Positions 22,444-59,404 are shown, numbered from the stretch's first letter. The stretch is DNA of 64,000 nt from an uncultured Planctomycetaceae bacterium (GCA_964652605.1 CAZZBH010000002.1:5956-69955), one strand, 5' to 3'. Notes: generated by a model from the letters alone, not told the origin. Program-made: numbers and translations.

Positions 22444-22488
22444 TGGAGCGGGCGAAGGGGTTCGAACCCTCGACCACCTGCTTGGGAA
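22444..22488. repeat. attL: 45-bp direct repeat identical to the 3' half (anticodon loop to CCA) of tRNA-Gly(CCC); left boundary of the genomic island
   Basis: TGGAGCGGGCGAAGGGGTTCGAACCCTCGACCACCTGCTTGGGAA occurs at 22444-22488 and again at 59360-59404. The sequence diverges immediately outside both copies. Confidence 0.75.
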
Positions 22489-22631
22489 CGGGGCCCCTCC
22501 GTTTTTTCCGCCTCTCCTGAGAACCGCTTGATTCCGCCCTTTCCAGCCACCTGAGCGGGCTTGGCGTCGATTTGAGCGTCGCTGTCCGGGTGGAGAAAGT
22601 TGGCTCCAGTGGCATCAATAACTGGGTTTTT

Positions 22632-22652
22632 TGGTGGTACTTTTGGTGGTAG
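22632..22652 (+). repeat. Putative integrase arm-type site (tandem GGTGGTA half-sites), left copy
   Basis: TGGTGGTACTTTTGGTGGTAG lies between attL and the int start codon. A near-identical element occurs at 59268-59291. Confidence 0.4.
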
Positions 22653-22676
22653 TGCCCAAAGGGCAGGAGGGCCTAA

Positions 22677-24026
22677 ATGGCAAGGCGGAAGAGGAAGAAC
22701 AAGTATCCGGGACTGACCGTTTTCCGGGAAAAACGGGTGGGGACGCTACTGGTCAAATGGATCGACCCGCAGACCGGAAAGAAGCGTCAGGAGTCGCTGA
22801 GCAAGCAGGGCTATGCGTCCAAGGACGAGGCAGATCGTCGACTGCGCAAGCTCAGCCGCAAGGTGATGGACGAGCGAAGAGTTGTAGAGATCGAAGGTCG
22901 GCGCGAAAACGCCGGCGTCGAGTGGCCAGTGATTATCAAGACCTACCTCGCCCAGTACGCGCAAGTGCACTCGGAGAAGTCCAAGAAGCGGACGGAGCAT
23001 GCGCTCTATCCACTCAAGGAATGGCTGGCCGGCGACGGCAGACGCTACCGTGTCGGTGGTGACCTCAACCGGCTCGGCCTGCTGAGCCTTCACGACTGGC
23101 TGGGACGCCTTCGCCAGCGCGTGGGATGCAAGGGTCCCCGCGGAAAGCACGAACAGACGGACAAGCCGCTGTCCAACGCCAGCCTGAACAACTATCGGGC
23201 GGCGATCGTGGCGTTGCTGCACTGGGCGCGAAAACGCGAGTACTTCCGGATCACAGGCGACGACATCCGTGACACCATGCCGAAGTTCCGGGAGCGCAGG
23301 CCCCTGCCCGTGGAGGTGTCGCCGGCCGAGCTGGAGATCCTGATCAACGCGGTAGTCGAGCACGACACCGACCGCTGCCACGGATCGCGCGCCGACAAGC
23401 ACGCGTACTACTCGGGCGTGGCGAGCCCGGAAGCCGAGCTTCGATACAAGCCTTTGGCTCCGCTGGCCCTCCTGTTGATGCTGACCGGCATGCGCCTTGG
23501 CGAGGCGCTGCACGTGCGGTGGGACACGGTCGACTTCGAGCGCAAGTTCCTCGACGTGCGCGCAGACGAGTCTTCCGGCTGGGATGTGAAGACCCGGCAC
23601 GAACGGCGCGTTCCGTTCGGGGACAGTCCGGCGCTGGAGCGCCTGCTTCTTGGATTGCGCCTGCGCCGCGGCGAGAACCAGTACGTGATCGCCGGTGACG
23701 AGCCGGGCAAGGCCCGGCACTTCAGCCGCTACAGCTGGGACAAGCTGTTCGACCCCGGCCAGCGGGCGATCACTCCGAAGATGTTGCGCTCGACGTTCGC
23801 CACGGCGCTGGCATGCGCCCGCGGCGGGCCAATGCCCTACGAGCTGGCGCATCGACTGGGACACTCGGTGGAGGTTGCAGCAAGGAACTACATTCGCCAG
23901 TCCGATCCGAGAGCCGGCACCACGGTCGAGGAATGGTTGGGTGTCCGTGACAAGCTCGACGAGGCGTTGGACGCGCTAGGATATCCGAAAGTTGAGCTAG
24001 CCAACCGCGGCCTGCGGGTCGTTTAG
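22677..24026 (+). CDS. int: Tyrosine-type site-specific integrase (phage integrase family)
   Basis: A 449-aa product with an N-terminal basic/SAM-like region and a catalytic domain (..LLMLTGMRLGEALHVRWDTVDF.., ..MLRSTFATALA.., HRLGHSVEVAARNYIR). It is adjacent to the tRNA-derived repeat. Confidence 0.85.
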   Translation: MARRKRKNKYPGLTVFREKRVGTLLVKWIDPQTGKKRQESLSKQGYASKDEADRRLRKLSRKVMDERRVVEIEGRRENAGVEWPVIIKTYLAQYAQVHSEKSKKRTEHALYPLKEWLAGDGRRYRVGGDLNRLGLLSLHDWLGRLRQRVGCKGPRGKHEQTDKPLSNASLNNYRAAIVALLHWARKREYFRITGDDIRDTMPKFRERRPLPVEVSPAELEILINAVVEHDTDRCHGSRADKHAYYSGVASPEAELRYKPLAPLALLLMLTGMRLGEALHVRWDTVDFERKFLDVRADESSGWDVKTRHERRVPFGDSPALERLLLGLRLRRGENQYVIAGDEPGKARHFSRYSWDKLFDPGQRAITPKMLRSTFATALACARGGPMPYELAHRLGHSVEVAARNYIRQSDPRAGTTVEEWLGVRDKLDEALDALGYPKVELANRGLRVV

Positions 24027-24040
24027 CTGCGCAGGGGATC

Positions 24041-24066
24041 GGGGGACGGGGTATCTCCCGTCCCCC
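24041..24066 (+). terminator. Perfect 10-bp GC hairpin after int
   Basis: GGGGGACGGG-GTATCT-CCCGTCCCCC begins 15 nt after the int stop. Confidence 0.4.
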
Positions 24067-24251
24067 GGGTAGGCGGGTTGAAACCTCGACTGCCTTGAGC
24101 CGGAGAGGGCGCGCATCCATTCGCGTATGTGTTGGAGGGATTGGATTCCATGGCACTGGATTGTTGAAGGAAGTAAGCCTTAGAAATCGTGATCCGTTTC
24201 CTGTGTGGGGCAGGTACAAAACGTATGCAATTGCACTAATGCGCAGACAGT

Positions 24252-24872
24252 TTGTACCCTGTGTATATGACGAAAACGACCAGAAAAAAGATCATCCGAC
24301 TGGCAAGGGCCGGCGGAGTAATCCGTGCAGCGGAGGTGGAAGCTGCCGGCATCCATCGCAAGCACCTGATCGAGCTGACGCAAGACGGCACGCTGGAGCG
24401 GGTAGGACGCGGCCTGTATCGCCTAGCTGGCAGCCCAGTCACCGAACACCAATCGCTGGTCGAGGCATCCAAAGCGGTCCCGCAGGGCGTCATCTGCCTG
24501 CTGTCGGCGCTTGCGTTTCACCGCATGACCACACAGCTACCGCACGAAGTCTGGATTGCCATCAGCCGTGAAGCGCGAAGGCCGACATTCCATTCGCTCC
24601 AACTTCGCGTGGTGCAGATGAGTGAGCGTGGACTGAACACCGACGTTGAGCACCACAAGCTAGCTGGCGTTGAAGTACGCGTGTTCAGCAAGGCAAAGAC
24701 CGTGGTGGATTGCTTCAAGTGGCGCAAGATCGTGGGCCAAGACGTGGCGATCGAGGCGCTGCGAGATTACCTCAGCCGCAGAAGCAGCAAGCCAACGGAA
24801 CTGATGCGGCTGGCGAGGATCTGCAGAGTTTCCAGCGTCATGAGACCTTACATGGAGGCGCTGGTTGGGTAA
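24252..24872 (+). CDS. AbiEi-family type IV toxin-antitoxin antitoxin / transcriptional regulator
   Basis: The N-terminal winged-HTH region (..RAAEVEAAGIHRKHLIELTQDGTLERVGRGLYRL..) and overall length fit the AbiEi_4/COG5340 pattern. It overlaps the downstream nucleotidyltransferase gene by 8 nt. Confidence 0.6.
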   Translation: MYPVYMTKTTRKKIIRLARAGGVIRAAEVEAAGIHRKHLIELTQDGTLERVGRGLYRLAGSPVTEHQSLVEASKAVPQGVICLLSALAFHRMTTQLPHEVWIAISREARRPTFHSLQLRVVQMSERGLNTDVEHHKLAGVEVRVFSKAKTVVDCFKWRKIVGQDVAIEALRDYLSRRSSKPTELMRLARICRVSSVMRPYMEALVG

Positions 24873-25782
24873 GAGCAAGCCGACCAACATTGCCGCGTCG
24901 GTCCGTGACCGGCTGCTGAATCTGGCTAAAGAGCGAGGCGAGGATTTCAACTTCGTTCTGGCCCGCTACGCCATAGAGCGCTTGATGTACCGCCTCAGCC
25001 GGTCAGGGCACCGCGACAGCTTTGTGCTCAAGGGAGCAACCCTGTTTCACGTGTGGGGTGTTGCCGCACACCGAGCCACCAAGGACGTCGATCTATTGGG
25101 GCGCGGTGACAACACGCCGACCGGATTGATTCAGGTCCTGCAGGATGTGATTGAAACGGACGTCGAGCCTGACGGCATTCAGTTCTTGGCGTCGTCGCTA
25201 AGGGCCCAAGCGATTGCTCCCGAAGCCGAATACAAAGGCGTGCGCCTGACGATGACCGCGAAGCTCGGAACCGCACGGATCGCCGTGCAGGTGGACGTGG
25301 GTTTTGGTGATGCAGCGACGCCGAAGCCCAAATTGACGGAGCTTCCAGTGCTGCTCGACCTTCCCGCGCCAAAGATCAGGACGTATGCCAAAGAGACGGT
25401 CGTGGCCGAGAAGTTCCAAGCAATGGTGCATCTCGGCCTTCTGAACTCGCGCATGAAGGACTACTTCGATCTATGGCTAATGGCGAACACCTTCGAGTTT
25501 GACGGGGAAACGCTGGCCACGGCCATCGCGGCAACATTCAAGCAAAGACGAACTCCGATGCCTGTCGAATTGCCGGACGGCCTTGGAGACGAGTTCGTGG
25601 GAGACGAGAGAAAGCTATCTCAATGGAATGGATTCGTGAGGCGTGTTGCACAGGTACACCAAGGCGTCTCCCTTGCCAACGCAGTTGCGGACCTGCGCCA
25701 GTTCTTGATGCCGGTGGCCGAAGCGATCGGATCTGGAGCGCCTTATCGCAAACGGTGGCGTCCGGGAACGGGTTGGAGCTAG
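24865..25782 (+). CDS. AbiEii/AbiGii-family nucleotidyltransferase toxin
   Basis: GATLFHVWGVAAHRATKDVDLLG matches the nucleotidyltransferase GS...D.D motif. The C-terminal region resembles AbiEii, and it is paired with AbiEi. Confidence 0.65.
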   Translation: MGKSKPTNIAASVRDRLLNLAKERGEDFNFVLARYAIERLMYRLSRSGHRDSFVLKGATLFHVWGVAAHRATKDVDLLGRGDNTPTGLIQVLQDVIETDVEPDGIQFLASSLRAQAIAPEAEYKGVRLTMTAKLGTARIAVQVDVGFGDAATPKPKLTELPVLLDLPAPKIRTYAKETVVAEKFQAMVHLGLLNSRMKDYFDLWLMANTFEFDGETLATAIAATFKQRRTPMPVELPDGLGDEFVGDERKLSQWNGFVRRVAQVHQGVSLANAVADLRQFLMPVAEAIGSGAPYRKRWRPGTGWS

Positions 25783-25864: not shown

Positions 25865-27082
25865 TCAGCAGCGGCCGTCACTTTGTGGTCGTACCCGATA
25901 GACGGCTGGTTCCATGAGTAGTTCCTTGCTTCCGAATGACGGATGCGGAATGGATAACAGCTTTGGTCGCTTGGTGAGAGCATCGAACACCAGATAAAGA
26001 TAGTAGTTGCCCGACTCCGCAGCCCGTCGGAACTCGTTTGCCGTCAGCAGGAACCCTCGTTCCATGTCGCCCGCGCTTGTGCTCTTTACTTCTATCTGGC
26101 GCTCGGATCCGTCAACGTCAAATGACTGGATGTCATACCCCGCTCTGTCGTCTTCCAACGCGATGTGCCGAATTTGGCTGGCGAGGTCGGATCGACCCGC
26201 CTTGAGCAGGCGATTACGCTCCCATTCCAGCACAATGTATTCTCCGCGGTCCCCGATTCGTTTCGACTGTCGAGCTAGCTCTTCATAGTTCGGCTTTCCG
26301 CGTCCTTCGCCCCCGCGAACCCCTGCCAGCGGGCCAGAGGGTAACACTGACAGTTCTTGAGTCCCGGAGACGGCCACGGTGAGATGTGGAAGCTCGTTAG
26401 AATGTGGCGCGCGCTCTGCGGCAACGCCGACAGGTCTTAGCGGACCTTGGTAAAGAAACTGCATGAACAGCACTGGTGGCACATCCACCGCTTCGGATAG
26501 GTCGTTGCGATAGCGCATCAGCGCGCGCTGCATCCGCGGACCGTCGCCGAGGTCGCCGGGTAGGTTCAGCTCACTGGTGAAGTGGCACAGATGTGCGTCC
26601 GAATAGATCGGTGCATAGCGCTCTGGATGGTAAATCGCGAGGAGCTTGCCCTTGAACATCGGAGAAAGATCGACCCGTTGGATGGCGACTTCGTCATCCC
26701 GATCTGCAGCCGCCAGCAAGTCGAGAATTGAAGGCTTGATCTCCTCGAACCCTGCAATGGGGTCGCCAATCCATCTCTTCTTGGCCCGATATGTCTTGCC
26801 TACCTCTCCCTTCTTCTTCCCGAAGTAGACTCCAAACTTCATCGCGGTGCTGCCACGCATGTCGCCCAACGTGAGCAACTCAAACTCGATTCGATAGCAG
26901 AATGTCTTCTTTCCCTTGCCGCTGACGTATTCGTCGATGGTGAGTTCTGCAATACGATCTGGTGGGAAGTCCGCCACGAATCGCGCCCGGAGTCGCTCCG
27001 TACGCTCGCAACCCTTCCACTCTTCCTTGGTCAGCCCGCCAAGCCAGCGTTGCAGGTCCTCCGTGAACTCGTTTCGATTCAT
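25865..27082 (-). CDS. Hypothetical protein with C-terminal DUF3883-like PD-(D/E)xK nuclease fold
   Basis: The C-terminus ..YDIQSFDVDGSERQIEVKSTSAGDMERGFLLTANEFRRAAESGNYYLYLVF.. has the D...EVK restriction-endonuclease-like motif and the YYLY tail typical of DUF3883. Confidence 0.45.
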   Translation of the reverse strand: MNRNEFTEDLQRWLGGLTKEEWKGCERTERLRARFVADFPPDRIAELTIDEYVSGKGKKTFCYRIEFELLTLGDMRGSTAMKFGVYFGKKKGEVGKTYRAKKRWIGDPIAGFEEIKPSILDLLAAADRDDEVAIQRVDLSPMFKGKLLAIYHPERYAPIYSDAHLCHFTSELNLPGDLGDGPRMQRALMRYRNDLSEAVDVPPVLFMQFLYQGPLRPVGVAAERAPHSNELPHLTVAVSGTQELSVLPSGPLAGVRGGEGRGKPNYEELARQSKRIGDRGEYIVLEWERNRLLKAGRSDLASQIRHIALEDDRAGYDIQSFDVDGSERQIEVKSTSAGDMERGFLLTANEFRRAAESGNYYLYLVFDALTKRPKLLSIPHPSFGSKELLMEPAVYRVRPQSDGRC

Positions 27083-28234: not shown

Positions 28235-31200
28235 TTGGATCTCGTGCCGAAGATATTCGACAACATTGAGGCAAAGCTGCTGCCGGCGTTGGTAGAGGGC
28301 GTCAAGGCCGCATATCGTGCTGACTTCTGCGTCGGCTTCTTCAACCTACGCGGATGGAAGAACCTCGCGGAGCATGTCCAGCGATTCGAGGGCGGCGACA
28401 AATGCTGTCGATTGCTTGTAGGCATGCAGCGTCTTCCGGAAGAAGACCTGCGCGACGCGTTGTCTCTCGCTGGTAGCGTAGATCAACTCGACAATGCCAC
28501 TGCCCATCGGCTCAAGATGCGTATGGCTCGCGGCTTTCGAGAGCAGTTGGCCATTGGTGCTCCAAGAGTCGAGGATGAGGCCGGTTTGCGTCAGCTTGCG
28601 GCACAACTTCGTTCCGGCGTGGTCGTAGCTAAACTGTTCCTCCGCTATTCGCTCCACGCGAAGCTCTACCTGTTGCATCGACACGACAACATTACGCCGC
28701 TGTTCGGCTATCTGGGGAGCAGCAATCTCACCCTTGCCGGGCTGGTTCATCAGGGCGAACTCAACGTGGATGTCGTCGATCAGGATGCGGCGAATAAGCT
28801 GGCCAAGTGGTTCGACGATCGGTGGTTCGACCACTACTGCGTTGACATATCGAAGGAACTAGCCGAAATCATCGAGCAAAGCTGGGTCAAGCCGGACCTA
28901 TCCCCATACCTCATCTACCTCAAGATTGCGTTTCATCTCTCCCAAGAAGCCCGCACCGGTCTCGCCGAATTCAAGATTCCAAAGGAGTTCAGCAACAAGC
29001 TATTCGAGTACCAGAAGGCAGCGGTCAAGATCGCTGCCCATCACCTCAATCGGCGCGGCGGGGTGCTCATTGGAGACGTGGTCGGGCTTGGTAAGACGCT
29101 GGTCGCAACAGCGATTGCCCGCATCTTTGAAGACGACTACTCCATGGAGTCGCTCATCCTCTGCCCCAAGAATCTGGTACGCATGTGGGAAGATCACCGC
29201 GAGCAGTATGGGCTCCGGGGCAAGGTCCTATCGATCAGCCGGGCAATGACGGAGCTACCAGATCTAAGGCGCTACAAGCTGGTGATCATCGACGAGAGCC
29301 ACAACCTCCGTAACCGCGAAGGCAAGCGCTATGGTGCCATTCGCGAGTACATTCACGCCAACGAAGCTCGTTGCGTTCTGTTGTCCGCAACGCCCTACAA
29401 CAAGTCGTTCATCGATCTGTCCTCGCAGCTACGCTTGTTCGTTGAGGAGGGCACAGACCTCGGTGTCCGGCCAGAGAAGCTCCTAAAGGACATTGGCGGC
29501 GAAACAGAATTCCTCAAGGCTCACCAATGCCCAGTCCACTCGTTGGAAGCCTTTGAGAAGAGCGGCTACACCGACGATTGGCGTGAGTTGATGCGGCTCT
29601 TCATGGTTCGGCGCACTCGCAGCTTCATTGAACAGCACTACGCGGAAACAGACGCCAACGGTCGGAAGTTCCTCACATTCGAGAACGGCGAAAAACAATA
29701 CTTCCCAAAGCGGGTGCCCAAGACCCGCAAGTTTGACTTGGACGATGCAGACCCGAATGATCAGTATGCCCGCTTGTTTACCGACTCGGTCGTGGATCGC
29801 ATCAACCACTTGCGGCTCCCAAGATACGGACTCGGCAACTACGTAGTGGCGAGGCCATCGACGCCGCCAACAACCGCTCAGGCGCGGGTACTCGCGGGCC
29901 TATCTCGGGCGGGCCAACGGCTGATGGGTTTCTGCCGAACAAACCTGTTCAAGCGGCTGGAAAGCAGTGGCGCAGCGTTTTTGCAGTCAGTGGATCGCCA
30001 CATCTTGCGCAACCTGATCGTCCTGCATGCGCTTGACCACAGCCTCGACATCCCAATTGGTACGCAGGACACGGAGATGCTGGACACCCGCTTCACGGAT
30101 GAGGATGCGGACGAGCAGGACCTTTTTGAGCGCGACGACGACACGGAGGTACCAGAAGCACCTGAGAACCCCGACCCGGCGGCACTGTCACTTGAATCGT
30201 TCCAGTCTTTGGCCGAGAGAGCCTATGCAAGGTACGCAGGGGAAAAGAGACGTCGCTTCAAATGGCTACCAAGTGCGCTCTTTCGCGCTGACCTACGTGA
30301 GCATCTTCTGGCGGATGCCAAATCGTTGCTCGTGCTTTTGAATGACGCTGGTGAGTGGGATCCGGGCCGCGACAACAAGCTGCAAGATCTCATTGACCTG
30401 CTTAGTCGCAAGCATCCGACCGAGAAGGTCTTGGTCTTCTCGCAGTTCGCGGACTCCGTGGACTACCTTGTGGAGCATCTTGGCGCCGCAGGCGTTAGCC
30501 GAATCGAAGGCGCCACCGGCCAGTCGTCTGACCCCACTGCATTAGCTTGGCGCTTCAGCCCCGTTAGCAATGAAAAGGTCGGCAGAATTAGCGCACAGGA
30601 CGAGCTGCGAGTGCTCGTGGCCACCGATGTCCTTAGTGAAGGCCAAAATCTGCAGGATGCTGCGATCGTCGTGAACTACGATCTGCCGTGGGCCATCATT
30701 CGCCTAATCCAGCGTGCGGGCCGCGTGGACCGTATTGGACAGCTAGCAGACAAGATCCTCTGCTACTCCTACCTGCCAGCCGATGGCATCGAGCGCATCA
30801 TTAGGCTCCGCGGGCGCGTACGCCAGCGTCTGCATGAGAACGCCGAGGTCGTCGGGTCCGACGAGGCTTTCTTCGAGGACGCGGATAGCCATACCCGGGT
30901 GCTCGACCTGTACAACGAGAAAGCCGGCATCCTCGACGAAGGTGAGGACGGGGATGTGGACCTCGCGTCCTACGCCTACCAGATTTGGCGCGACGCGACG
31001 AAAGACAACAGGGAGCTGGCCAAGCAGGTCGAGCAGTTGCAAGACGTCGTCAATGCGACCAAGCCCCACAAGTCGTCTCCCGATCGGCCCGAAGGCGTGC
31101 TTGTTTACGCTAAGACGAATCACGGGACTGACGCGCTCGCCTATGTCGACTTGGTCGGAAACGACGTCACCGAATCTCAACTTGAGATTTTGCAGCTTGC

Positions 31201-31624: not shown

Positions 31625-31627
31625 CCG

Positions 31628-51596: not shown

Positions 51597-51904
51597 TGCG
51601 AGTCACCACACCGTCTACACAAATGAAGGAGGAGCGACCCGGCGCTGCCTCCGTTCAGGCTCCGCTAGAAGCCCTTGCACAAGCAGACATCCGAATCGCC
51701 CCAGCCGGGGCGCTTCGGTGTCTGCGGTGTGCTTGGAACCTAGCGGATTCGAACGGACCGCAGATCACGATGCGCAGTTGTACTGACACTCAACCGGCGA
51801 CCATCGCCGGCTATTGACCTCCAGTTGCTCTGACCCCCGAAGTCTACCTGACCGTGCGACAGCGGCCAATGCGCTGCTGTTCGCCTTTCCCGAAAGGAGT
51901 CCTG

Positions 51905-52798
51905 ATGTTTCTGAGCACTGCCAACTTGAAGCACCACGTGGCAGCCGCAAGCCGTGGCCGCTACGCGCTGAACAGCATTGCGTTGACGCCCAACGGGACG
52001 ATGTCCACTGACGGGCACTCCCTGCTGTTCACGCCGTACCCGGACGCAGATCCCAAGGACGCTCCGAAGATCGATGGTGTTGACCCGAAAACACCCGCTC
52101 CGCAGGTCGAGCCCTTCCTGCTGGATCTCGGCGACGCCGGCAAGGCCGCAGCAATGCTGGGCAAGCCGAGGCGCCACGCGCCCGCGGTCACTCAGTTCAT
52201 TCAGGCCGAGATCAGCGACGACGCCATTGTCTTGGGCGTCACCGATCTGGCCAACGCCCAAACGATGAAGGCCCGGCGCATGGACGGCGTGTACCCCGAG
52301 GTCGGCGCCGTGATCCCGGACTACGACAAGGCGATGGCCGTCAGCGTCAACCTCGACCAACTGGTGAGGTCACTGAAGGCTCTTCGAGGAGCAACCAGCG
52401 ACGAGGTCGTCACGATCCGCATCATCGATGACCAGCAGGCGGTCGGATTCTCCTGCAAGGATGGCACCGCAATGCTGTGCATGCCCGTGCAGGTCGACAA
52501 GCCGGAGGAGCACATCCCAGACCAACTCGCCAAGCTGCGCACGAATGCGGAAGGACCGCCGGCCACGCCGGTCGCGCCTCCCGCTGCGCCTGAAGACGAC
52601 AATGAGGATGAGGGCGAATCCAGCATCCCCACAGAGACCGAGATGCAGGAGGCGCAGGAAGTGTTCGACGCGCAGCCGGTCATGCCTGAGCCCACTGTCG
52701 CTGCGACCGCGACCCGGCCCCAGCTAGCCAAACCGCGCCGGCGCCGCCACAAGTCGGTGCCAGTCGAGTCGGAACTGGCCGAGATCATCAACGGGTGA
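51905..52798 (+). CDS. DNA polymerase III beta-subunit (sliding clamp)-like domain protein with acidic/Pro-rich C-terminal tail
   Basis: ..MSTDGHSLLF.. parallels DnaN ..VATDGHRLAV.., ..MDGVYPEVGAVIPDYDK.. parallels ..VDGRFPDYRRVLPKNPDK.., and ..AMLCMPVQV.. parallels ..YVVMPMRL. I placed the start at MFLST with AAGGAG 6 nt upstream. Confidence 0.45.
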   Translation: MFLSTANLKHHVAAASRGRYALNSIALTPNGTMSTDGHSLLFTPYPDADPKDAPKIDGVDPKTPAPQVEPFLLDLGDAGKAAAMLGKPRRHAPAVTQFIQAEISDDAIVLGVTDLANAQTMKARRMDGVYPEVGAVIPDYDKAMAVSVNLDQLVRSLKALRGATSDEVVTIRIIDDQQAVGFSCKDGTAMLCMPVQVDKPEEHIPDQLAKLRTNAEGPPATPVAPPAAPEDDNEDEGESSIPTETEMQEAQEVFDAQPVMPEPTVAATATRPQLAKPRRRRHKSVPVESELAEIING

Positions 52799-52901
52799 TC
52801 GGGCTGGGCCCGCGACGTAATCTTGGCCGGGCGGGTGGGGAGTTCGAGCAAGAAGCCTATTCATAACCGCGGGTACATCTGGCCGTGACTATGGAGAGGC
52901 G

Positions 52902-53156
52902 ATGAAGAAGCAGCGGATTGTGATCAACTCGAACGTGGCGCAGGTGTTCCTCAACTTGCGCCATTCAGCCTGTCCGTCCTGTGGAAGATACAAAACGAAG
53001 ACCGAGTTTCTGTATCTTGAAGCCGACCAAGCGTTCCAAGGGGTTCACTGCCCGTGGTGCGACAACGCTTGGATTGACGCCCTGCCGAGGGCTGCGTTCT
53101 GGGAGTTTTTGTTCTCCACGAGCGAGCCGCAGGTAGAGACGGAGCCGTCCGTCTGA
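52902..53156 (+). CDS. Small zinc-ribbon protein
   Basis: CPSCG...x22...CPWCD forms a CxxC...CxxC zinc-ribbon arrangement. Confidence 0.35.
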   Translation: MKKQRIVINSNVAQVFLNLRHSACPSCGRYKTKTEFLYLEADQAFQGVHCPWCDNAWIDALPRAAFWEFLFSTSEPQVETEPSV

Positions 53157-53409
53157 TTGCGACGTGCGTTTCGTGGTCAGTTGCGCCGCAGCGCAGCCGT
53201 CAGCGCGTTGGTCCACTGCTATAGCCTTGGCAGCCACCTTCGCGAAGGTTGTGCGACCAACCGATTGCCACTTCTTAGACTCCCGGCCCTTGCCGGTTGA
53301 GCCCGCGAGGTCCGCCCGCCGCGGCAATGGCGGCGGGCACTGTCGACGTTCCGCTCACTGATCCTAGGGGCCGGGCTTTGTACCGGCGCCGCAACTTCCA
53401 AGGAGAACC

Positions 53410-53877
53410 ATGGTCAAACTGATCGCCAGCTACGGCTTGAAGGTCCCCGGTGCGCAGGAGTACAGCTCGCAGTCGTTCCATGCGACGGCCGAAGTCGAGC
53501 TAGCCGACGCGCTGGTCAACAAGCCGGATTCCATGAAGGCTGCGCTGCACTCCCTTTGGGGCGACCTCAAGGTGGCTGTCGCCGAGCAGATCCAACGTGG
53601 CCAACCGGCACCCGACCGCAGCAGCAATGGAAACGGACGCACCAACGGCAATGGCCACCACCGGAATCAAGGCGCCTCTGGGCGAAGCTCGCGCGAGGGC
53701 AACGGTGCATCGGCCAGCAAAAAGCAGATTGGGTTCCTGCTGAGCCTCACGCGGCGCAAGCGCAATCTCAGCGCCGAGCAGACACGGGAATGGCTGCTCA
53801 ACGAGCGAGGCCTGCGCCTGAATGCGCTGAGCAAGTCAGAAGCAGGGACGCTCATCGATGAACTCAACGACAACTAA
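53410..53877 (+). CDS. Hypothetical protein with Gly/Asn-rich linker
   Basis: A 155-aa ORF with AAGGAGAACC RBS context. Confidence 0.35.
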   Translation: MVKLIASYGLKVPGAQEYSSQSFHATAEVELADALVNKPDSMKAALHSLWGDLKVAVAEQIQRGQPAPDRSSNGNGRTNGNGHHRNQGASGRSSREGNGASASKKQIGFLLSLTRRKRNLSAEQTREWLLNERGLRLNALSKSEAGTLIDELNDN

Positions 53878-53965
53878 GCGTCGGCGAGTGGGGGAACTGG
53901 CTTTGGCAACCTGAGTTACTGAGGGCCGGTGTAGTTCTGCCGGCCCTCGATGAAGGGAGGTAGGG

Positions 53966-54760
53966 ATGACAACAAAAACAGGTACGCGCACCAGCTACAG
54001 CAAGCTGTCAACATGGTTGCGCTGTCCGAAGAAGTACAAGCACCGATACGTTGATGATGCACCCGAAGAGATTACCCCAGTATCGCTGGTGCTCGGCACA
54101 GCCATTCACGAAGCGTGCGAAGTGTTCCTTGGCGCGCTGAAGGATGGCCAACCACCGATTGCGGAAGAGGTTTACGGAGCATTCCATCGTGCCTTCACGG
54201 ACAGCGTGAAGTTGGCGGAAGACATGAACGTTCCGATGGAATGGGGCAAAAGCAGCTACGAGTCGATGGTTGAGAAGGGCGAGGCACTGATCGCAACGTT
54301 CTTGGCTGAGGTGGATCGAGATATCCGCGTCGTTGCAACCGAGGTTCCGTTTCAGTTCGAGATCGCACCCGGCAGGATGGTTGAGGGTGTCATCGACCTG
54401 ATTCTGGATGACGGCAACGGGCGCTACCGCGTTGTGGACCTGAAGACTGCTGCATCAACCTACGGACAGGACCGCATCGATCACGACATCCAGCCAACTG
54501 TCTACATAGCAGCCGTCGAGCATCTCTACTCGGCACCGGGACGGGTAGACTTCGAATTCTGGTTGCTTTTGAAGCTGAAGAAACCGCAGTTCAAGATCAT
54601 GCCGGTCGTTCGAGACGCAGCAGACCGGGCGGAACTAATCGAGACCATCGACGAGATCGAGCATGCATGTCTTCGCGGCGTGTTCCCCCGCATCCGGGGA
54701 TTCATGTGCGTTGGCTGCGAGTACAGGAGCCGCTGCAGCGTCTCAACGAAGGGAGCGTGA
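53966..54760 (+). CDS. PD-(D/E)xK nuclease, Cas4/RecB-exonuclease-like with C-terminal Cys cluster
   Basis: The N-terminal motif is SYSKLSTWLRCPKKYKHRY, the core is GVIDLILDDGNGRYRVVDLKT (D...DLK) with QPTVYIAA (QxxxY), and the C-terminal cysteines are CVGCEYRSRC. Confidence 0.65.
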   Translation: MTTKTGTRTSYSKLSTWLRCPKKYKHRYVDDAPEEITPVSLVLGTAIHEACEVFLGALKDGQPPIAEEVYGAFHRAFTDSVKLAEDMNVPMEWGKSSYESMVEKGEALIATFLAEVDRDIRVVATEVPFQFEIAPGRMVEGVIDLILDDGNGRYRVVDLKTAASTYGQDRIDHDIQPTVYIAAVEHLYSAPGRVDFEFWLLLKLKKPQFKIMPVVRDAADRAELIETIDEIEHACLRGVFPRIRGFMCVGCEYRSRCSVSTKGA

Positions 54761-55191: not shown

Positions 55192-55953
55192 TCAGTTTCT
55201 CTCCGGCTCAGTGAACACGAACTCGGTGTGCGGGATCCGCATCTTCGGCATCTTGCCATCGGGGAACAACACTTCCCGGCACCAAGCGCGAGTCTCCAGT
55301 GTGAGGTAATGCAGGACTCTGTTGATCTCCGGGTAGCAGTCCTCGTACTCGTCGACCATGACCTTCTTGCCGTCTTTCTCGACTTCCTTCTGGCGGATAG
55401 GCGAGTGGTAGGGCTCTCCCGTGAACACAGGGCGACGACCGTCCTTGCCCTCGTTCCATCGATCGACAACAAAGGCATCAGCGAGGATCGGGATCGGCGT
55501 CTTGAAGTGCGGGTACTGCATGCAGTATTTCAACAGGCAGGCTACTTCGAGGGCGATGTCTTCACGGACTTCGAGCACGATCTCGTCATGTACCTGCATC
55601 AGCGGGAAGATCCCGTCACGGTACTCAGGCCGGGTCATAACTCGCTCCCAGAACAGGGAGAACGCGGCTTTCAGGACGTCAGCAGCCGAGCCTTGCACGA
55701 TGGTGTTGAAGATCGTTCCGGGAGAAATGCGGTTCTTGATCCTGAGCCCGCCTTCGAAGATCCAGCGATCCCATGAGCGTTTGCGCCCGGAGAACGGGAT
55801 GACGTAGTCCCTGACCTCTTCGCGATCCCACAGCTCCTTGAGGAACTCGATGAAGGACTCGATCTCGTGGTTGACCTCGAAGAAGCCGTTACGCAGAGAC
55901 TCTGCAACATCGAACCCCAGCTCGAAAGCGATAGCGAAGGTCTTCGCCGTCAT
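55192..55953 (-). pseudogene. Family A (Pol I/T7-like) DNA polymerase C-terminal fragment (motif B to motif C), probably a remnant of a polymerase gene disrupted by the upstream homing endonuclease
   Basis: The N-terminus MTAKTFAIAFELGF parallels T7 motif B RDNAKTFIYGFLYG. ..NTIVQGSAADVLKAAF... then MQVHDEIVLEV matches the Pol A Q(G)SAAD..K and (V)HDE motif C. No upstream ORF encodes motif A or the exonuclease domain. Confidence 0.55.
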
Positions 55954-57248
55954 GCCATAGCCCCGGCGATGCCTTCAAAACGGTGCACCCAATCGTCAGC
56001 AAGCAAGATCGGACCGATGGACTCGGGAGCGCTAGGTCCGCGTGGCAGGGGGACCAACATGCTCTTCTCCGCGGTGGACCTGCTCCGGATCTTGATGGTG
56101 CAGCACTTGTGACTGACAAGAAAGCTGAGGCACGGAGTTCGCTTGGCGGATACCAAGTGCTGCACGTAGGGCAAGCGAGTGTCACCGAAACGGACGCGCT
56201 TCTTCAATCGCAGGCATTCGCGCATCTTCTCCCGTGCCGCACCCTTGGATTGCTTGTAGAGAAACTCCAGCTCGCGCTGCGGAATGTCGTAGCCATGCGC
56301 AGCCATCATTCTGCTGACGTGGGGACGCGCAAAGTTCTGCTTCCGGTGAGATGAGAACCCAATGGTCTCCATAAACCGGTTTACGAATCGATGGCTTCGC
56401 AGGAGAACGCCATGGAAGGACCCGTAAGTCGGCTTCACCTCGGTTGTGCGGTACGCCGGAATACCCATCTCCCATAACAGTGTATGGACCTGATCTGCGA
56501 GGATCGGCGACTTGACCATGGTGCCAATCGGCGACGTGACCTGTCCCTTCGTGGACCAAATGCTGCCGTCACCGGCATAGAAGGCGCTCAGGAAAGCTGC
56601 GATGATTGATTTTGGTGCCGCAAGTACACACAAGGGGATCCCGCGATCACCCGAAAGTGCACCCATCAACTGCGAAGCCGCCCAGTAGTAGAGGTCGCGT
56701 CGGTGTACAGCAACAACTTGCAGACCCTTCGAGGTCCACGTCTTCACGTTCGAGCTACCGAATGTGTGTTCGGCGGTCTTGATCAGGTCGTCGGCAATGT
56801 CCTTGTCCGATAGGCTAACGGTAACTCGGGCCGAGTAGCTGCTGCGGTTCTTGTGCAAGTTTCCCTCGGCCACGAGGTAGCCGAGATACCGGGCAACGAG
56901 GTCATCTAGCTGATTCCGGGCGAAGGCAGGCTTCGAGCTCGTTCGAGCTGGCAATACAAGAGGAGACAGGGCGGTACTCGTACCAAACCGGTCCCAGCCC
57001 AATCCGGCCACCAACGAGTCGCCGGGCAAGACCTTTGAGGCTCGTGTGGGCCGCAGACCCAGAGGTCCCGAAACCAGCAATGGCATCTGGGGGTCGACGA
57101 CAAGGCGGAATCCGAACTCAGTAGTGATCGTCACGGCAGGCCGCTCTTCTGCTATCGGCTTCCCCTTTGCACCAAGCATGTTCTCCGCGGCGCCCCAGCA
57201 TCCGTTCGAAAAGACCATCGCGCTCGGTGAAACCCATGCTGCAGTCAT
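55950..57248 (-). CDS. LAGLIDADG-family homing endonuclease (two-motif, monomeric type)
   Basis: Motif 1 is YLGYLVAEGNL and motif 2 is FLSAFYAGDGSI. Its stop overlaps the Pol A fragment start (ATGA). Confidence 0.65.
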   Translation of the reverse strand: MTAAWVSPSAMVFSNGCWGAAENMLGAKGKPIAEERPAVTITTEFGFRLVVDPQMPLLVSGPLGLRPTRASKVLPGDSLVAGLGWDRFGTSTALSPLVLPARTSSKPAFARNQLDDLVARYLGYLVAEGNLHKNRSSYSARVTVSLSDKDIADDLIKTAEHTFGSSNVKTWTSKGLQVVAVHRRDLYYWAASQLMGALSGDRGIPLCVLAAPKSIIAAFLSAFYAGDGSIWSTKGQVTSPIGTMVKSPILADQVHTLLWEMGIPAYRTTEVKPTYGSFHGVLLRSHRFVNRFMETIGFSSHRKQNFARPHVSRMMAAHGYDIPQRELEFLYKQSKGAAREKMRECLRLKKRVRFGDTRLPYVQHLVSAKRTPCLSFLVSHKCCTIKIRSRSTAEKSMLVPLPRGPSAPESIGPILLADDWVHRFEGIAGAMA

Positions 57249-57696
57249 CGATGTCCTCCGTGGTGGTTCAATCGGATTGAACCACTATTAACGAAATCAC
57301 CATTGCTCGCTCGCATATGCCGGGCCTAGTGCGGATGAACGCCGTGATGGGCGCTGACTAGATGGCTTGCAGGGACCAGCCTCCATCCCGGAGGACGCAA
57401 CCCGATCCACGATCCGAAAGATGGCGGCAGACCGAGGAAGGCCAGCACCTCCGGCTAAGGAATCGCACCATCGACATGTGCCGACCAGCGAACTCATGTA
57501 TGGAAGTATGAACCGATTCGGCTTTTGAACGACTTGGTCATGAGGCCGTGAAGGGTAGAGCCGCGGCGCACGTCGCTGGACTGGACAACCGAGTTCAGAT
57601 CGTCTGCAGATCAAACGGGGAGCGCGTGGGTGATGGGGATTTGGGGTCATGGGAATCCGGCAACCATGGGCCTCGCGAAATGGGGTTCACAGGCAA

Positions 57697-58878
57697 TCAT
57701 CCGATGCGTGGGCGGCTGTCGGTGCGCTTGTGCGGCAGGTTTCGCAAGACTTGATCATCCCACCGGAACTTCAGGATGGCATTTCGCACGTCACCGGTAG
57801 CCGCGACTGCCGTCAGTCCACCTGAGCGGCTTTCCAGCGCCTGCCGGAATGAGTCGCTGAGCAGACGTCCTGCAATCATTGGATGCGGATCCTCCAATGG
57901 TTGCAGGACGTCGAGCTTGGGTAGCCTTGCTTTCGTGCGCTTTGGCAGGCCCCAAGTTCTGAACAACCGAACCCTTCCCTTCAGGTCAATCAGGGCCCGT
58001 GCCCAGTTCTCGTAGCTTGGGCAATCGTCTGACACGGTGATCTCTGCCTTGATGGCATAGAACACGGCCCGAAAGATGGTCTCGCTTATCAACTTGGGCG
58101 AGCATCCACGCAGGAGTTTCGGCGACACTTTTTTGCGTGGAGAAAGATCGCCCATCGCGCCCTCGCACACCGCCCGCCATTGTTTGCCAAGCTTCTGGCG
58201 ACTGATGGGCGCGCCGGCGTACACCACGTGAGCGTGGGCGTGGTATCCGTCGGTAGAACAGACAATGTCTATCCCCAATGCGACAAACTGAACCTCCGGC
58301 TGCCGTAACAACCACTTCCTGAACTTGGCTATCGACTGGTTGAGGCGCTGAACGGCAGCAGGGGCATCTTCAGCACGGCGCTTCGGCTGTGTAAGCCCAA
58401 ACGTGAAGATCGAATGACCACGCCGGACCGCGTCAAGGAAATAAGGAGTCAGCTCTCGCGTTTTCTGTCGCTGCACGCGTCGACTGCACACCGGACACCG
58501 GGACTTCTCGCAGCGAACGCTGACCTTCAACGGATACCGGCCGTCTGGCCGGTATGTCTGCCGCATGTCGACGTTGCAGTAGCCGATCTTGTGGGCAAGC
58601 GACGGATCGAGAGGAAACAGCGCGCCGGCCAGTCGTTCCTTCTCGATCCAGTACGGGTAGTTAGCGTGCTGGTAGATCCCTGACAGGACCTCCTCACAGG
58701 CATCCCGCCCGAGCGTAGGCAGGATGGTCATTTTAGTACCCCCTAGTACAAGTCTTTCCATTTCCGAAATCAGGCCATACCGCTCCGGCCGGGCATCGGA
58801 CACCAGCTTCTGAAGGTCCACGCGCTTCCTGTGCATGTAATGCCTCGCGGTCGGCTCCAACGCCGGCGATGGTCGCAT
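57697..58878 (-). CDS. Rolling-circle replication initiator-like protein (HUH endonuclease superfamily) with CxxC zinc motif
   Basis: The HUH motif is ..DGYHAHAHVVYAG.. and a YxxK motif 3 candidate lies at ..VFYAIKAEI... The Zn motif is CEKSRCPVCSRR. It sits next to the excisionase at the island end. Confidence 0.5.
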   Translation of the reverse strand: MRPSPALEPTARHYMHRKRVDLQKLVSDARPERYGLISEMERLVLGGTKMTILPTLGRDACEEVLSGIYQHANYPYWIEKERLAGALFPLDPSLAHKIGYCNVDMRQTYRPDGRYPLKVSVRCEKSRCPVCSRRVQRQKTRELTPYFLDAVRRGHSIFTFGLTQPKRRAEDAPAAVQRLNQSIAKFRKWLLRQPEVQFVALGIDIVCSTDGYHAHAHVVYAGAPISRQKLGKQWRAVCEGAMGDLSPRKKVSPKLLRGCSPKLISETIFRAVFYAIKAEITVSDDCPSYENWARALIDLKGRVRLFRTWGLPKRTKARLPKLDVLQPLEDPHPMIAGRLLSDSFRQALESRSGGLTAVAATGDVRNAILKFRWDDQVLRNLPHKRTDSRPRIG

Positions 58879-58885
58879 GGGAGTT

Positions 58886-59119
58886 TCAATTCGCTCTGTA
58901 AGCGGTTAGCCACCGTGCAAGATCGGCACGCCTGATAAGAAAAGGGCCGCGGACCCCGCCGCGACGATAGGCCAGAAGATCTCCCTTTCGGACCGCCTCG
59001 TACGCGACGCTTCTTGAAATGCCGAGAGATCGGCAGATGTCCGGAATCTGCAGGAGGGGCTGGACGCCCATTTCCTTGAGGTCGGCCTCGACCTGTTCTA
59101 CGGTGCTCTGTGTCCGCAT
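58886..59119 (-). CDS. Excisionase/AlpA-like helix-turn-helix DNA-binding protein
   Basis: The 77-aa product ..ICRSLGISRSVAYEAVRKGDLLAYRRGGVRGPFLIRRADLARWL.. is a MerR/Xis-type HTH. It is adjacent to the att site. Confidence 0.6.
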   Translation of the reverse strand: MRTQSTVEQVEADLKEMGVQPLLQIPDICRSLGISRSVAYEAVRKGDLLAYRRGGVRGPFLIRRADLARWLTAYRAN

Positions 59120-59267
59120 AGCGGGCTCCCTGTTTTGGGCTACCGGTAATGGGTCACACCGAGAGTTTGTTTTTCAAGCGAACCTGATCGGTTTTTCTTA
59201 TGCTGGCCACCTGTTAGTGGCGTTGAGTGCCGGATTGTTCGACGACCGTGCACTTGACGTTGCAAGT

Positions 59268-59291
59268 TGGGTGGTACTTTTGGGTGGTACC
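59268..59291 (+). repeat. Putative integrase arm-type site, right copy
   Basis: TGGGTGGTACTTTTGGGTGGTACC matches the 22632-22652 element in the same orientation. It lies ~70 bp inside attR. Confidence 0.4.
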
Positions 59292-59359
59292 TGCCGTTTT
59301 GGGAGAAATGACAACCGCTCAAGGTGGCTTGGAAGCCTTACCCTGAGCGGTTTCTAGGC

Positions 59360-59404
59360 TGGAGCGGGCGAAGGGGTTCGAACCCTCGACCACCTGCTTG
59401 GGAA
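59360..59404. repeat. attR: 45-bp direct repeat forming the 3' half of the intact tRNA-Gly
   Basis: It is identical to 22444-22488. Confidence 0.75.

What the first reader, a model, noticed from the sequence alone, without database searches (positions are those of the whole stretch)
22444..59404. ~37-kb genomic island integrated into the 3' end of tRNA-Gly(CCC), bounded by a 45-bp direct repeat
The 45-nt sequence TGGAGCGGGCGAAGGGGTTCGAACCCTCGACCACCTGCTTGGGAA (anticodon loop through CCA of tRNA-Gly, minus strand) occurs at 22444-22488 and 59360-59404. Only the right copy continues into a complete tRNA (59360-59434). A tyrosine integrase lies 190 bp inside the left repeat, and an excisionase-like HTH plus an HUH Rep lie inside the right repeat. 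Everything between is accessory-type content: TA, nucleases, helicase/MTase, kinase and a replication module. This is the classical signature of an integrative element using a tRNA 3' end as attB.
Basis: seen in the sequence. Interest (0 to 1): 0.7.

Follow-up and report, generated by a model that had tools for sequence, protein, structure and literature searches.

The report
Defence island inserted in tRNA-Gly
A 36.9-kb mobile element in a Planctomycetota chromosome cut itself into the end of a glycine tRNA gene and rebuilt that gene; it carries its own integrase, excisionase and replication protein plus a load of anti-phage genes, which is a textbook kind of genomic island from a family not described before.

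Summary
An exact 45-bp direct repeat sits at 22444-22488 and 59360-59404. It runs from the anticodon loop to the CCA end of tRNA-Gly(CCC), and only the right copy continues into a full tRNA.

- **Recombination genes:** a tyrosine integrase with intact catalytic residues lies 189 bp inside the left repeat. An HTH_17 excisionase and a probable HUH Rep lie inside the right repeat.
- **Arm sites:** four copies of TKGGTGGTAS occur in the window, two in each att arm and nowhere else.
- **Relatives:** integrases 51-69% identical sit about 230 bp from the identical 45-bp fragment in three other Planctomycetota assemblies. More distant ones use the same segment of tRNA-Arg or tRNA-Val.
- **Empty versus occupied site:** two related genomes are 93.6% identical up to the last base of the core. 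One then continues as the tRNA and the other as an element.

No virion or conjugation genes were found. Cargo is mostly defence genes. The "replication module" is partly a relic: an intein-derived LAGLIDADG gene plus the C-terminal third of a family A polymerase.

No conspecific genome exists, so this copy's own empty site is untested. Verdict: new member of a known kind.

The parts
22444..22488 (-). attL core: displaced 3' fragment of tRNA-Gly(CCC), from the anticodon loop to CCA
   Evidence: Exact 45-bp repeat. It diverges from the tRNA immediately after GGGAA.
22629..22652 (+). Two direct repeats, TTTTGGTGGTAC and TTTTGGTGGTAG: candidate arm-type integrase sites (P' arm), 25 bp upstream of int
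   Evidence: TKGGTGGTAS has 4 matches in 64 kb, all in the two att arms, against 0.15 expected. The same layout is seen upstream of homologous integrases.
22677..24026 (+). Tyrosine integrase (449 aa)
   Evidence: PF00589 at 48.1 bits against a cut-off of 27.1. R273, R371, H396 and Y405 are invariant and K305 nearly invariant in an 11-member family alignment.
24252..25782 (+). AbiEi antitoxin (24252-24872) and AbiEii toxin (24865-25782), a type IV TA / abortive-infection pair
   Evidence: Pfam AbiEi_4 and AbiEii (E 6e-46). PADLOC AbiEi E 2e-80.
25865..27082 (-). NOV_C / PD-T4-1-like defence protein
   Evidence: PADLOC PD-T4-1 E 6e-72. Pfam NOV_C.
28235..34987 (+). HKD(PLD)-SNF2 helicase (28235-31624) followed by a type IIG restriction-modification enzyme (31628-34987)
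   Evidence: Pfam PLDc_2, SNF2-rel_dom and Helicase_C; Eco57I. PADLOC HKD+Snf2 E 4e-40; REase_MTase_IIG at 1110.8 bits over the full length.
35204..39123 (+). Sigma-70-like protein with an N-terminal type-IIG-like domain (35204-36676), DprA/PsyrA-like protein (36648-37244), AIPR/AbiU-like protein (37336-39123)
40479..41366 (-). Ser/Thr protein kinase, PD-T4-6-like, flanked by two ORFs with no family match (39263-40468 and 41342-42064)
   Evidence: Pfam Pkinase E 3e-31. PADLOC PD-T4-6 E 4e-46.
42622..45855 (+). TPR protein (42622-44688) and DUF932/phrog_1362 protein (44695-45855). The DUF932 protein is a conserved backbone gene.
   Evidence: The DUF932 protein is 84% identical to the one in the related element L014.
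47238..49234 (+). GHKL-type ATPase (597 aa) and a 68-aa protein
   Evidence: Weak HATPase_c, sacsin and MutL N-terminal hits. The 68-aa protein is 79% identical in L014.
50271..51596 (-). Protein with a C-terminal DUF4145
   Evidence: Pfam DUF4145 E 9e-5.
51854..54760 (+). Conserved backbone block: a 314-aa protein, a Zn-ribbon protein, a 155-aa protein and a PD-(D/E)XK exonuclease (53966-54760)
   Evidence: These are 66%, 64% and 53% identical to genes of L014/L015. PDDEXK_1 E 2e-30. PHROG exonuclease hit.
55192..55953 (-). C-terminal third of a family A DNA polymerase (starts just after motif B and keeps motif C, QVHDE), as a separate ORF
   Evidence: Pfam DNA_pol_A profile positions 224-381 of 381. 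It matches only residues ~565-795 of full-length relatives, and no N-terminal part is present anywhere in the window.
55950..57248 (-). Intein-derived LAGLIDADG protein (Hint-like N-terminus starting at Cys17; C-terminal VHR in place of VHN)
   Evidence: LAGLIDADG_3. PI-PkoII and VMA inteins in PDB. Related full-length polymerases carry LAGLIDADG inteins in motif B at the same junction.
57697..58878 (-). Probable HUH rolling-circle Rep (393 aa)
   Evidence: Motifs are conserved in three homologues: a Cys cluster, xxTLTQ, HxHAHxV and Y-x-x-K. Rep_1 hits are weak and below the cut-off.
58886..59119 (-). Excisionase-like HTH_17 protein (77 aa)
   Evidence: PF12728 at 38.8 bits against a cut-off of 27. 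PHROG 'excisionase and transcriptional regulator'.
59267..59290 (+). Two direct repeats of TTGGGTGGTAC: candidate arm-type integrase sites (P arm)
59313..59352 (.). 13-bp-stem hairpin supplied by the element directly 3' of the regenerated tRNA, likely a replacement terminator
   Evidence: 92% complementary arms. All ten other genomes with this tRNA have a hairpin at the same position.
59360..59434 (-). Intact tRNA-Gly(CCC). Its 3' 45 nt (59360-59404) are the attR core.

Best explanation
This is a 36.9-kb integrative element that entered the chromosome by tyrosine-recombinase site-specific recombination between its attP and the 3' 45 nt of tRNA-Gly(CCC). The crossover lies in or near the anticodon loop, the common 'anticodon-centred' class of tDNA sites. 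The element carries its own copy of the tRNA 3' part and a hairpin, so the tRNA is regenerated at the right end and the original 3' part is left as a fragment at the left end.

In the circular form, int and the xis-rep operon would diverge from attP, each with a pair of TKGGTGGTAS repeats in its arm. These are inferred to be arm-type integrase sites. Excision is inferred to need Int plus the HTH_17 protein. The excised circle is inferred to be replicated, or possibly mobilised, by the HUH Rep through rolling-circle nicking.

The element has a backbone shared with relatives in other Planctomycetota: int, xis, Rep, DUF932, a 314-aa protein, a 155-aa protein, a PD-(D/E)XK nuclease, and the LAGLIDADG/PolA-C pair. 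It also has a variable cargo of defence genes: AbiE, PD-T4-1-like, HKD-SNF2 helicase with a type IIG RM enzyme, AIPR/AbiU-like, and a PD-T4-6-like kinase. It encodes no recognisable virion or conjugation machinery.

Shown here: the att structure, the gene content, the relatives with the same att, and site occupancy polymorphism in related genomes. Inferred: the crossover position, the roles of Xis, Rep and the arm repeats, and whether this copy is still active.
For: - The 45-bp direct repeat is exact and only one copy is part of a full tRNA.
- The integrase scores above the Pfam cut-off, and its catalytic R, K, R, H and Y are conserved in the family.
- HTH_17 scores above the cut-off and has an excisionase PHROG hit.
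- The Rep motifs are conserved in three homologues.
- TKGGTGGTAS occurs 4 times, all in the two att arms, against 0.15 expected.
- Integrases 69% and 51% identical lie ~230 bp from the identical 45-bp fragment, with a terminator hairpin on the outer side, in L021, L014/L015 and L017/L018. L014 also shares five backbone genes at 53-84% identity.
- Integrases 49% and 42% identical use the equivalent 45-nt segment of a tRNA-Arg(ACG)-like gene (L016, L022/L023). An integrase 31% identical sits next to a tRNA-Val-like fragment and is followed by HTH_17 and a Rep homologue (L013).
- L002 and L019 are 93.6% identical over 872 bp with no gaps, ending exactly at the last base of the core. After that, L002 is the tRNA and L019 is an integrase-bearing element.
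- GC is 0.591 in the island against 0.623 in the left flank. GC3 is 0.674 for cargo, 0.738 for backbone and 0.784 for core genes.
- The left flank is core chromosome (dciA-like, gyrB, DUF2277) and is syntenic with relatives up to gyrB.
Against: - No genome of the same species is on record; the closest GyrB is 83% identical. The empty site for this copy could therefore not be observed.
- The relatives have no tRNA-Gly after gyrB, so the local context is not conserved.
- The compositional contrast is modest.
- Rep is below the Pfam Rep_1 cut-off, no fold could be obtained (pLDDT 34), and no pC194-type nick site was found near it.
- The polymerase is truncated and the intein has lost its splicing residues, so part of the element is decayed.
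- About ten ORFs have no family match, so a divergent transfer function cannot be excluded.
Confidence: 0.88

Rival explanations
1. It is a now-immobile defence island: the remnant of one or more elements that integrated at the tRNA and have since decayed. The repeat and int gene survive but excision, replication and transfer no longer work.
For: The polymerase is truncated and the intein is degenerate and frameshifted relative to it. No transfer genes were found. GC3 is mosaic, which suggests cargo accretion. The homologous LAGLIDADG gene is frameshifted in L022/L023.
Against: Both 45-bp cores are still identical. int, xis and rep are intact ORFs with conserved catalytic motifs. Both pairs of arm repeats are intact. 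By the Islander criterion (PMC4383910), an island with an integrase and both att sites intact is 'putatively active'.
Confidence: 0.3
2. It is a prophage or phage satellite that moves in virus particles.
For: It has a phage-type integrase and excisionase. The PD-(D/E)XK exonuclease, the polymerase piece and DUF932 have PHROG matches.
Against: None of ~30 ORFs scanned hits a capsid, portal, terminase, tail or lysis family in Pfam or PHROGs. Four scans of IMG/VR with int, Rep, DUF932 and the 314-aa protein found no relative.
Confidence: 0.05
3. It is an integrative conjugative or mobilisable element, and the HUH Rep acts as a relaxase at an oriT.
For: Rep_1-type rolling-circle initiators can also serve in mobilisation (IME review PMC5704250). 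DUF932 proteins are common on conjugative elements (own knowledge). The int/xis/rep trio resembles that of AICEs (PMC2440964).
Against: No T4SS, coupling protein or FtsK/TraB-like translocase hit was found in any scanned ORF. No oriT or nick site was identified.
Confidence: 0.2
4. The repeat is an assembly artefact of a metagenome-assembled contig that joined unrelated DNA at a shared tRNA sequence.
For: The source is a single metagenome-derived contig of 107,984 bp.
Against: A 45-bp repeat is shorter than the overlaps usually needed to mis-join contigs. The same fragment-then-int junction was assembled independently in separate samples (L014 and L015; L017 and L018; L022 and L023 for the Arg site). 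The int-side and xis-side arms carry the same repeat motif, as expected of one attP.
Confidence: 0.03

Closest known systems
tDNA-integrated genomic islands with an anticodon-centred attP (Islander class A; Hudson et al. 2015, PMC4383910; Williams 2002, cited there)
   Same: It has an intact tRNA plus a displaced 3' fragment in direct orientation, a tyrosine integrase inside, and an identity block from the anticodon loop to the 3' end. 2,083 of 3,919 Islander islands are of this class.
   Different: The host phylum is Planctomycetota. The integrase clade is small: only 10 clusters at E<=1e-10 among 5.8 billion proteins. In all members seen, the int gene lies next to the displaced fragment rather than next to the intact tRNA.
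[quoted passage not shown]
   Same: It inserts into the 3' end of a tRNA and has a tyrosine integrase, an excisionase and a pC194-superfamily-like rolling-circle Rep for replication of the excised form.
   Different: There is no FtsK/TraB-like transfer protein, Kor/Pra regulators or Nudix gene. attP lies upstream of int rather than directly downstream. At 36.9 kb it is three times larger than the characterised AICEs listed in that review's abstract, and it is dominated by defence cargo. The host is not an actinomycete.
Pipolins (PMC11551731)
   Same: Both are integrative elements flanked by tRNA-derived direct repeats. Both have a bimodular layout: a recombinase/excisionase/replication backbone, a DNA polymerase gene, and an exchangeable reservoir of defence systems.
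   Different: The pipolin hallmark is a primer-independent family B polymerase. Here the polymerase is family A and only its C-terminal third survives, next to an intein-derived LAGLIDADG gene.
Intein-containing family A polymerases and free-standing intein-derived endonucleases (yeast HO endonuclease is the classic case; own knowledge)
   Same: The LAGLIDADG protein keeps a Hint-like N-terminal region beginning with Cys and a LAGLIDADG core similar to PI-PkoII. Related full-length polymerases carry LAGLIDADG inteins inside motif B.
   Different: Here the N-extein is gone, the terminal Asn is replaced (VHR), and a frameshift separates the intein from the C-extein. It therefore cannot splice.

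Membership tests
tDNA-integrated genomic island (Islander definition, PMC4383910) | An intact tRNA gene plus a cognate displaced fragment on the same replicon, in direct orientation | tested here: met
   The fragment is the 3' 45 nt, on the same strand, 36,916 bp away.
tDNA-integrated genomic island (Islander definition, PMC4383910) | A tyrosine-recombinase integrase gene between the tRNA and the fragment | tested here: met
   PF00589 at 48.1 bits against 27.1. The gene is at 22677-24026.
tDNA-integrated genomic island (Islander definition, PMC4383910) | The site is occupied in some genomes and empty in related ones | tested here: inconclusive
   This was shown for the same 45-bp core in another lineage (L002 empty, L019 occupied). 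It was not shown for this genome, because no conspecific genome exists.
Tyrosine recombinase | Catalytic R...K...(H)xxR...H...Y | tested here: met
   R273, R371, H396 and Y405 are invariant and K305 is at least 90% conserved in 11 sequences. The first His of HxxR is Lys in most members.
Recombination directionality factor of the HTH_17 / excisionase type | A small winged-helix/MerR-like DNA-binding protein encoded next to attP | tested here: met
   PF12728 at 38.8 bits against 27. PHROG excisionase hit. The protein is 77 aa and starts 240 bp from the core. Its function in excision was not tested.
HUH rolling-circle Rep, Rep_1 (pC194/pUB110) family | Pfam PF01446 above the gathering score | tested here: not met
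   It scores 18.9 bits against a cut-off of 33.2. Two of three homologues give weak hits, the best at E 2e-4.
HUH endonuclease superfamily | Ordered motifs I (xxTLT), II (HUH) and III (catalytic Tyr) | tested here: met
   The window has FTFGLTQ, YHAHAHVVY and FYAIKAE. The equivalents are conserved in P0122 and in the L022 427-aa protein.
HUH endonuclease superfamily | The HUH fold (five-stranded sheet carrying the metal site) | tested here: inconclusive
   The AlphaFold model is unusable, with mean pLDDT 34. A profile search against PDB found nothing.
AICE | An FtsK/TraB-like DNA translocase for conjugation | tested here: not met
   No such Pfam hit occurs in any island ORF scanned.
ICE | A type IV secretion system, a coupling protein and a relaxase | tested here: not met
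   There are no hits. About ten ORFs remain unannotated.
Prophage | Capsid, portal, terminase and tail genes | tested here: not met
   There are no hits in Pfam or PHROGs. No relatives were found in IMG/VR.
Pipolin | A primer-independent PolB gene | tested here: not met
   The only polymerase homology is to family A.
Functional intein | An N-terminal Cys/Ser, a C-terminal His-Asn followed in frame by a Cys/Ser/Thr extein residue, and flanking exteins | tested here: not met
   Cys17 is present, but the C-terminus reads VHR. The polymerase piece is in another frame and no N-extein exists.

The most novel reading that the evidence does not exclude
The window's element could be a decayed member of an undescribed Planctomycetota family of tRNA-integrating elements whose ancestral backbone combined an HUH Rep with its own full-length exonuclease-plus-family-A polymerase. 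That would make it a PolA counterpart of the PolB-encoding pipolins and casposons. Alternatively, the recurrent, ORF-intact pair of an intein-derived LAGLIDADG endonuclease and a polymerase C-terminal piece may be retained for a function. It is seen in the window, L019 and L022/L023, and the polymerase piece also occurs as stand-alone fragments P0135 and P0136 that start at the same residue. One possible function is cutting the motif-B coding sequence of incoming phage or rival-element polA genes.
Probability: 0.12. Interest if true: 0.65.

Novelty: new member of a known kind. Interest (0 to 1): 0.35.

Why it matters
Mobile elements of Planctomycetota are barely described. Three full-text searches found no paper describing tRNA-integrating islands in this phylum.

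This locus and its relatives define a small integrase clade with clean, single-base-resolution att sites in tRNA-Gly(CCC), a tRNA-Arg(ACG)-like gene and a tRNA-Val-like gene. That clade could serve as a site-specific integration tool for a phylum that is hard to manipulate genetically.

The element also shows the familiar bimodular layout of a conserved backbone plus an exchangeable defence cargo, here in a new lineage. It preserves a snapshot of how an intein-bearing polymerase gene breaks down into separate genes.

None of this changes current concepts, so it is a well-supported but ordinary finding.

Tried and rejected
- **Source record:** exact-product look-ups of the window's own Int, GyrB and Rep found no record with gene calls.
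- **Genome scan with the full tRNA:** it gave ten other species, none syntenic with the window's flanks. None has a related integrase within the 5-8 kb available.
- **gyrB neighbourhoods of the nearest relatives (83% identity):** synteny ends at gyrB, so they give no empty site.
- **Flanks outside attL in L014, L017 and the window:** they have no counterpart next to intact tRNAs in the ten genomes.
- **Rep homologues:** none in plasmids, IMG/VR or the JGI metagenomes with a two-sequence profile. Only one relative turned up among 5.8 billion proteins.
- **Rep structure:** the AlphaFold model failed at pLDDT 34, so no fold search was run. The PDB profile search was empty.
- **Group I intron hypothesis for the split polymerase:** rejected, with no Rfam hit at E<=1 in 54600-59450.
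- **A polymerase N-terminal half elsewhere in the island:** rejected by tblastn with three full-length relatives at E<=1.
- **pC194-type nick site (CTTGATA) near Rep:** not found. The only island copies are inside int and the RM gene.
- **Context of the closest full-length polymerase (L024):** it shares nothing else with the window.

Full report
**Observation**

No further copy appears at up to three mismatches, and none is expected by chance. Shorter sub-segments also find only these two sites, so there is no third, degenerate att copy that would indicate a tandem array inside the window.

ARAGORN and Rfam both call a complete tRNA-Gly(CCC) on the minus strand at 59360-59434. In the tRNA sense the repeat runs from the first base of the anticodon loop (TTCCCAA) to the encoded CCA. 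Past the repeat the left copy reads CGGGG where the tRNA reads GCAGG. It is therefore a displaced 3' fragment. The element spans 36,916 bp.

**Host and flanks**

Ten species-representative genomes carry the identical 75-nt tRNA, and all are Planctomycetota MAGs. The left flank is core chromosome: an RND efflux operon, ribosomal protein S21, an ABC transporter, a dciA-like gene, gyrB and a DUF2277 gene.

The window's own GyrB is on record from a single 108-kb NCBI contig, and the next best GyrB is only 83% identical. In two such relatives, synteny with the window holds gene for gene up to gyrB and then stops. Neither has DUF2277 or a tRNA-Gly there. A true empty site for this copy therefore cannot be shown with the data available. 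This is the main gap.

**Anatomy of the ends**

- **Left end:** the integrase ORF starts 189 bp inside the left repeat. It scores above the Pfam cut-off. In an alignment of eleven relatives, R273, R371, H396 and Y405 are invariant and K305 is nearly so.
- **Right end:** on the other strand lie a 77-aa HTH_17 protein (above the Pfam cut-off, with a PHROG excisionase hit) and a 393-aa protein.
- **The 393-aa Rep candidate:** it gives only a weak Rep_1 hit (18.9 bits against a cut-off of 33.2). Its one database homologue (42% identity) and a more distant 427-aa protein from L022 share four features: a cysteine cluster, a motif-I-like xxTLTQ, an HUH motif (YHAHAHVVY / HHVHAHIVW) and a Tyr motif (FYAIKAE / CYQLRK). 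I accept it as a probable HUH rolling-circle initiator. It does not meet the Pfam threshold. The fold could not be checked because the AlphaFold model had a mean pLDDT of 34.
- **Arm repeats and circular form:** in the circular form, int and xis-rep would diverge from attP. Each arm carries two direct copies of TKGGTGGTAS. These four are the only matches in the 64 kb, against 0.15 expected. This is the layout expected of arm-type integrase sites.
- **Replacement terminator:** directly 3' of the regenerated tRNA the element supplies a 13-bp-stem hairpin. All ten other genomes have a terminator-like hairpin at that position, so the element appears to replace the terminator it displaces.

**Relatives**

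The integrase has only ten relatives at E<=1e-10 among 5.8 billion proteins. Their contexts are decisive.

- **Same tRNA-Gly core:** L021 (69% identity), L014/L015 (51%) and L017/L018 (51%) each have the identical 45-bp tRNA-Gly fragment, diverging right after GGGAA, about 230 bp upstream of int. Where the contig extends far enough (L014, L017) there is a hairpin on the outer side, and each has paired repeats just before int.
- **Shared backbone:** L014 also shares the DUF932 protein (84%), a 68-aa protein (79%), a 314-aa protein (66%), a 155-aa protein (64%) and the PD-(D/E)XK nuclease (53%) with the window. On the same 4.1-Mb contig the intact tRNA-Gly lies about 90.5 kb away in the same orientation. 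This implies a larger island or a tandem array there.
- **Other tRNAs:** L016 (49%) and L022/L023 (42%) have the same layout with the equivalent 45 nt of a tRNA-Arg(ACG)-like gene. L013 (31%) follows a tRNA-Val-like fragment, and its int is followed directly by HTH_17 and the Rep homologue.

The clade therefore targets the anticodon-loop-to-CCA segment of several tRNAs. In every case int sits beside the displaced fragment.

**Empty versus occupied site**

A metagenome scan looked for the 45-bp core followed by any base other than the G that continues the tRNA. It found two loci.

L019 aligns with L002, one of the genomes holding the intact tRNA, at 93.6% identity over 872 bp without gaps. The alignment ends exactly at the last base of the core. 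After that point L002 continues as the tRNA, while L019 continues into an element. That element has:
- an integrase only 27% identical to the window's in the catalytic domain;
- two HTH_17 genes;
- homologues of the window's LAGLIDADG protein (33-34% identical) and its polymerase piece (40-44% identical).

This is a genuine occupancy polymorphism at this att core in another lineage.

**Cargo and element type**

Pfam, PADLOC, PHROGs and NCBIfam scans identify:
- AbiEi/AbiEii;
- a PD-T4-1-like NOV_C protein;
- an HKD-SNF2 helicase next to a full-length type IIG RM enzyme;
- a sigma-70-like protein, a DprA/PsyrA-like protein and an AIPR/AbiU-like protein;
- a PD-T4-6-like Ser/Thr kinase;
- a GHKL ATPase and a DUF4145 protein.

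No capsid, terminase, portal, tail, T4SS, coupling-protein or FtsK-like hit was found, and four IMG/VR scans were negative.

Composition supports a backbone-plus-cargo structure. GC is 0.591 inside the island against 0.623 in the left flank. GC3 is 0.784 for core genes, 0.738 for backbone genes and 0.674 for cargo.

**The 'replication module'**

The 253-aa ORF at 55192-55953 matches only the last ~160 positions of the family A polymerase model. It begins right after motif B and keeps motif C (QVHDE).

An exhaustive HMMER search shows its closest relatives are full-length exonuclease-plus-polymerase proteins of about 800 aa, or 1,100-1,230 aa when they carry inteins. It also found two stand-alone fragments that start at the same residue. 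No homology to the first ~563 residues exists anywhere in the window or in L019.

The upstream 432-aa ORF resembles inteins such as PI-PkoII. Several full-length relatives carry LAGLIDADG inteins inside motif B. One of them, P0163, has the junction NFGL|C...SHN|CYGM. This matches the point where the window reads ...VHR, then about 15 nt with a frameshift, then GYGM-TAK.

The pair is therefore the 3' part of an intein-bearing polA. It has lost its N-extein and its splicing residues and cannot act as a polymerase on its own. The pair recurs with intact polymerase-piece ORFs in L019 and L022/L023, where the two genes are convergent and, in L022/L023, the LAGLIDADG gene is frameshifted. Whether it is retained for a function is open. 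No group I intron was detected.

**Comparison with known systems**

The architecture is that of a tDNA island with an anticodon-centred attP, the largest class in Islander (PMC4383910). The int/xis/RCR-Rep trio at a tRNA 3' end works like an AICE (PMC2440964). However, the defining transfer protein is absent, attP lies on the other side of int, and the host is not an actinomycete, so it is not an AICE.

The layout of backbone, polymerase and defence reservoir parallels the pipolins (PMC11551731), but the hallmark PolB is absent. Rolling-circle initiators of the Rep_1 type can double as mobilisation proteins (PMC5704250). Mobilisation by a helper element therefore remains a possible route of spread.

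**Verdict**

It is a new member of a known kind, in a phylum whose mobile elements are poorly charted, with moderate-to-low interest. The most novel reading not excluded is an ancestral PolA-encoding integrative element family, or a functional endonuclease and polymerase-fragment pair. I put that at about 12%.

Noticed in passing
window 59564-62968 (-), just outside the element on the tRNA's 5' side: A 1,134-aa PLD-helicase-DUF3427 protein matches the SauUSI-like type IV methyl-directed restriction enzyme model over its full length (PADLOC E 4e-234). Its GC3 (0.67) is island-like rather than core-like. Homologues (63% and 51% identical) also neighbour tRNA-Gly(CCC) in L002 and L019, but there they lie on the 3' side of the tRNA. 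The tRNA therefore sits in a defence-rich, variable neighbourhood.
   Followed up: partly
window 55192-57248 (-); also L019:184-2423 and L022:13428-15362: An intein-derived LAGLIDADG ORF and the C-terminal third of a family A polymerase recur as a gene pair in at least three diverged elements. The polymerase piece always starts at the same residue after motif B. Each fragment is closer to a full-length polymerase (54% and 63% identity) than to the other fragments (44%).
   Followed up: yes
L014 (JADJRK010000001.1 ~195.7 kb) and L006 (same contig, ~286.3 kb): The displaced tRNA-Gly fragment with its int gene and the intact tRNA-Gly lie ~90.5 kb apart in the same orientation. This suggests a much larger island or a tandem array. 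The tRNA-proximal end in L006 carries an XRE-type HTH gene and GGTAC repeats instead of the xis-rep module.
   Followed up: partly
window 21797-22443: Relatives with 83%-identical GyrB have no DUF2277 gene or tRNA-Gly after gyrB. The 386-bp A-rich spacer between DUF2277 and attL lacks the terminator hairpin seen 3' of this tRNA in all ten other genomes. The original downstream context of the tRNA in this genome is therefore unclear.
   Followed up: partly
window 35204-36676 (+): A sigma-70-like protein (regions 2 and 4) has an N-terminal ~200 residues that match the N-terminal domain of the neighbouring type IIG restriction enzyme model (PADLOC PDLC03628, E 8e-20). It also partly matches MzaA. 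It is followed by a DprA/PsyrA-like gene and an AIPR/AbiU-like gene. This may be an uncharacterised defence operon.
   Followed up: no
window 18525-18612 (+): ARAGORN calls a tRNA-Ser(GGA) here, but the Rfam scan at gathering threshold lists only the tRNA-Ala and tRNA-Gly.
   Followed up: no
L022:13428-14526 and L023:4367-5465: The LAGLIDADG homologue is split by a frameshift at the same place in two independent assemblies. This suggests real decay of that gene in the UBA2392 lineage, while the convergent polymerase piece stays intact.
   Followed up: no
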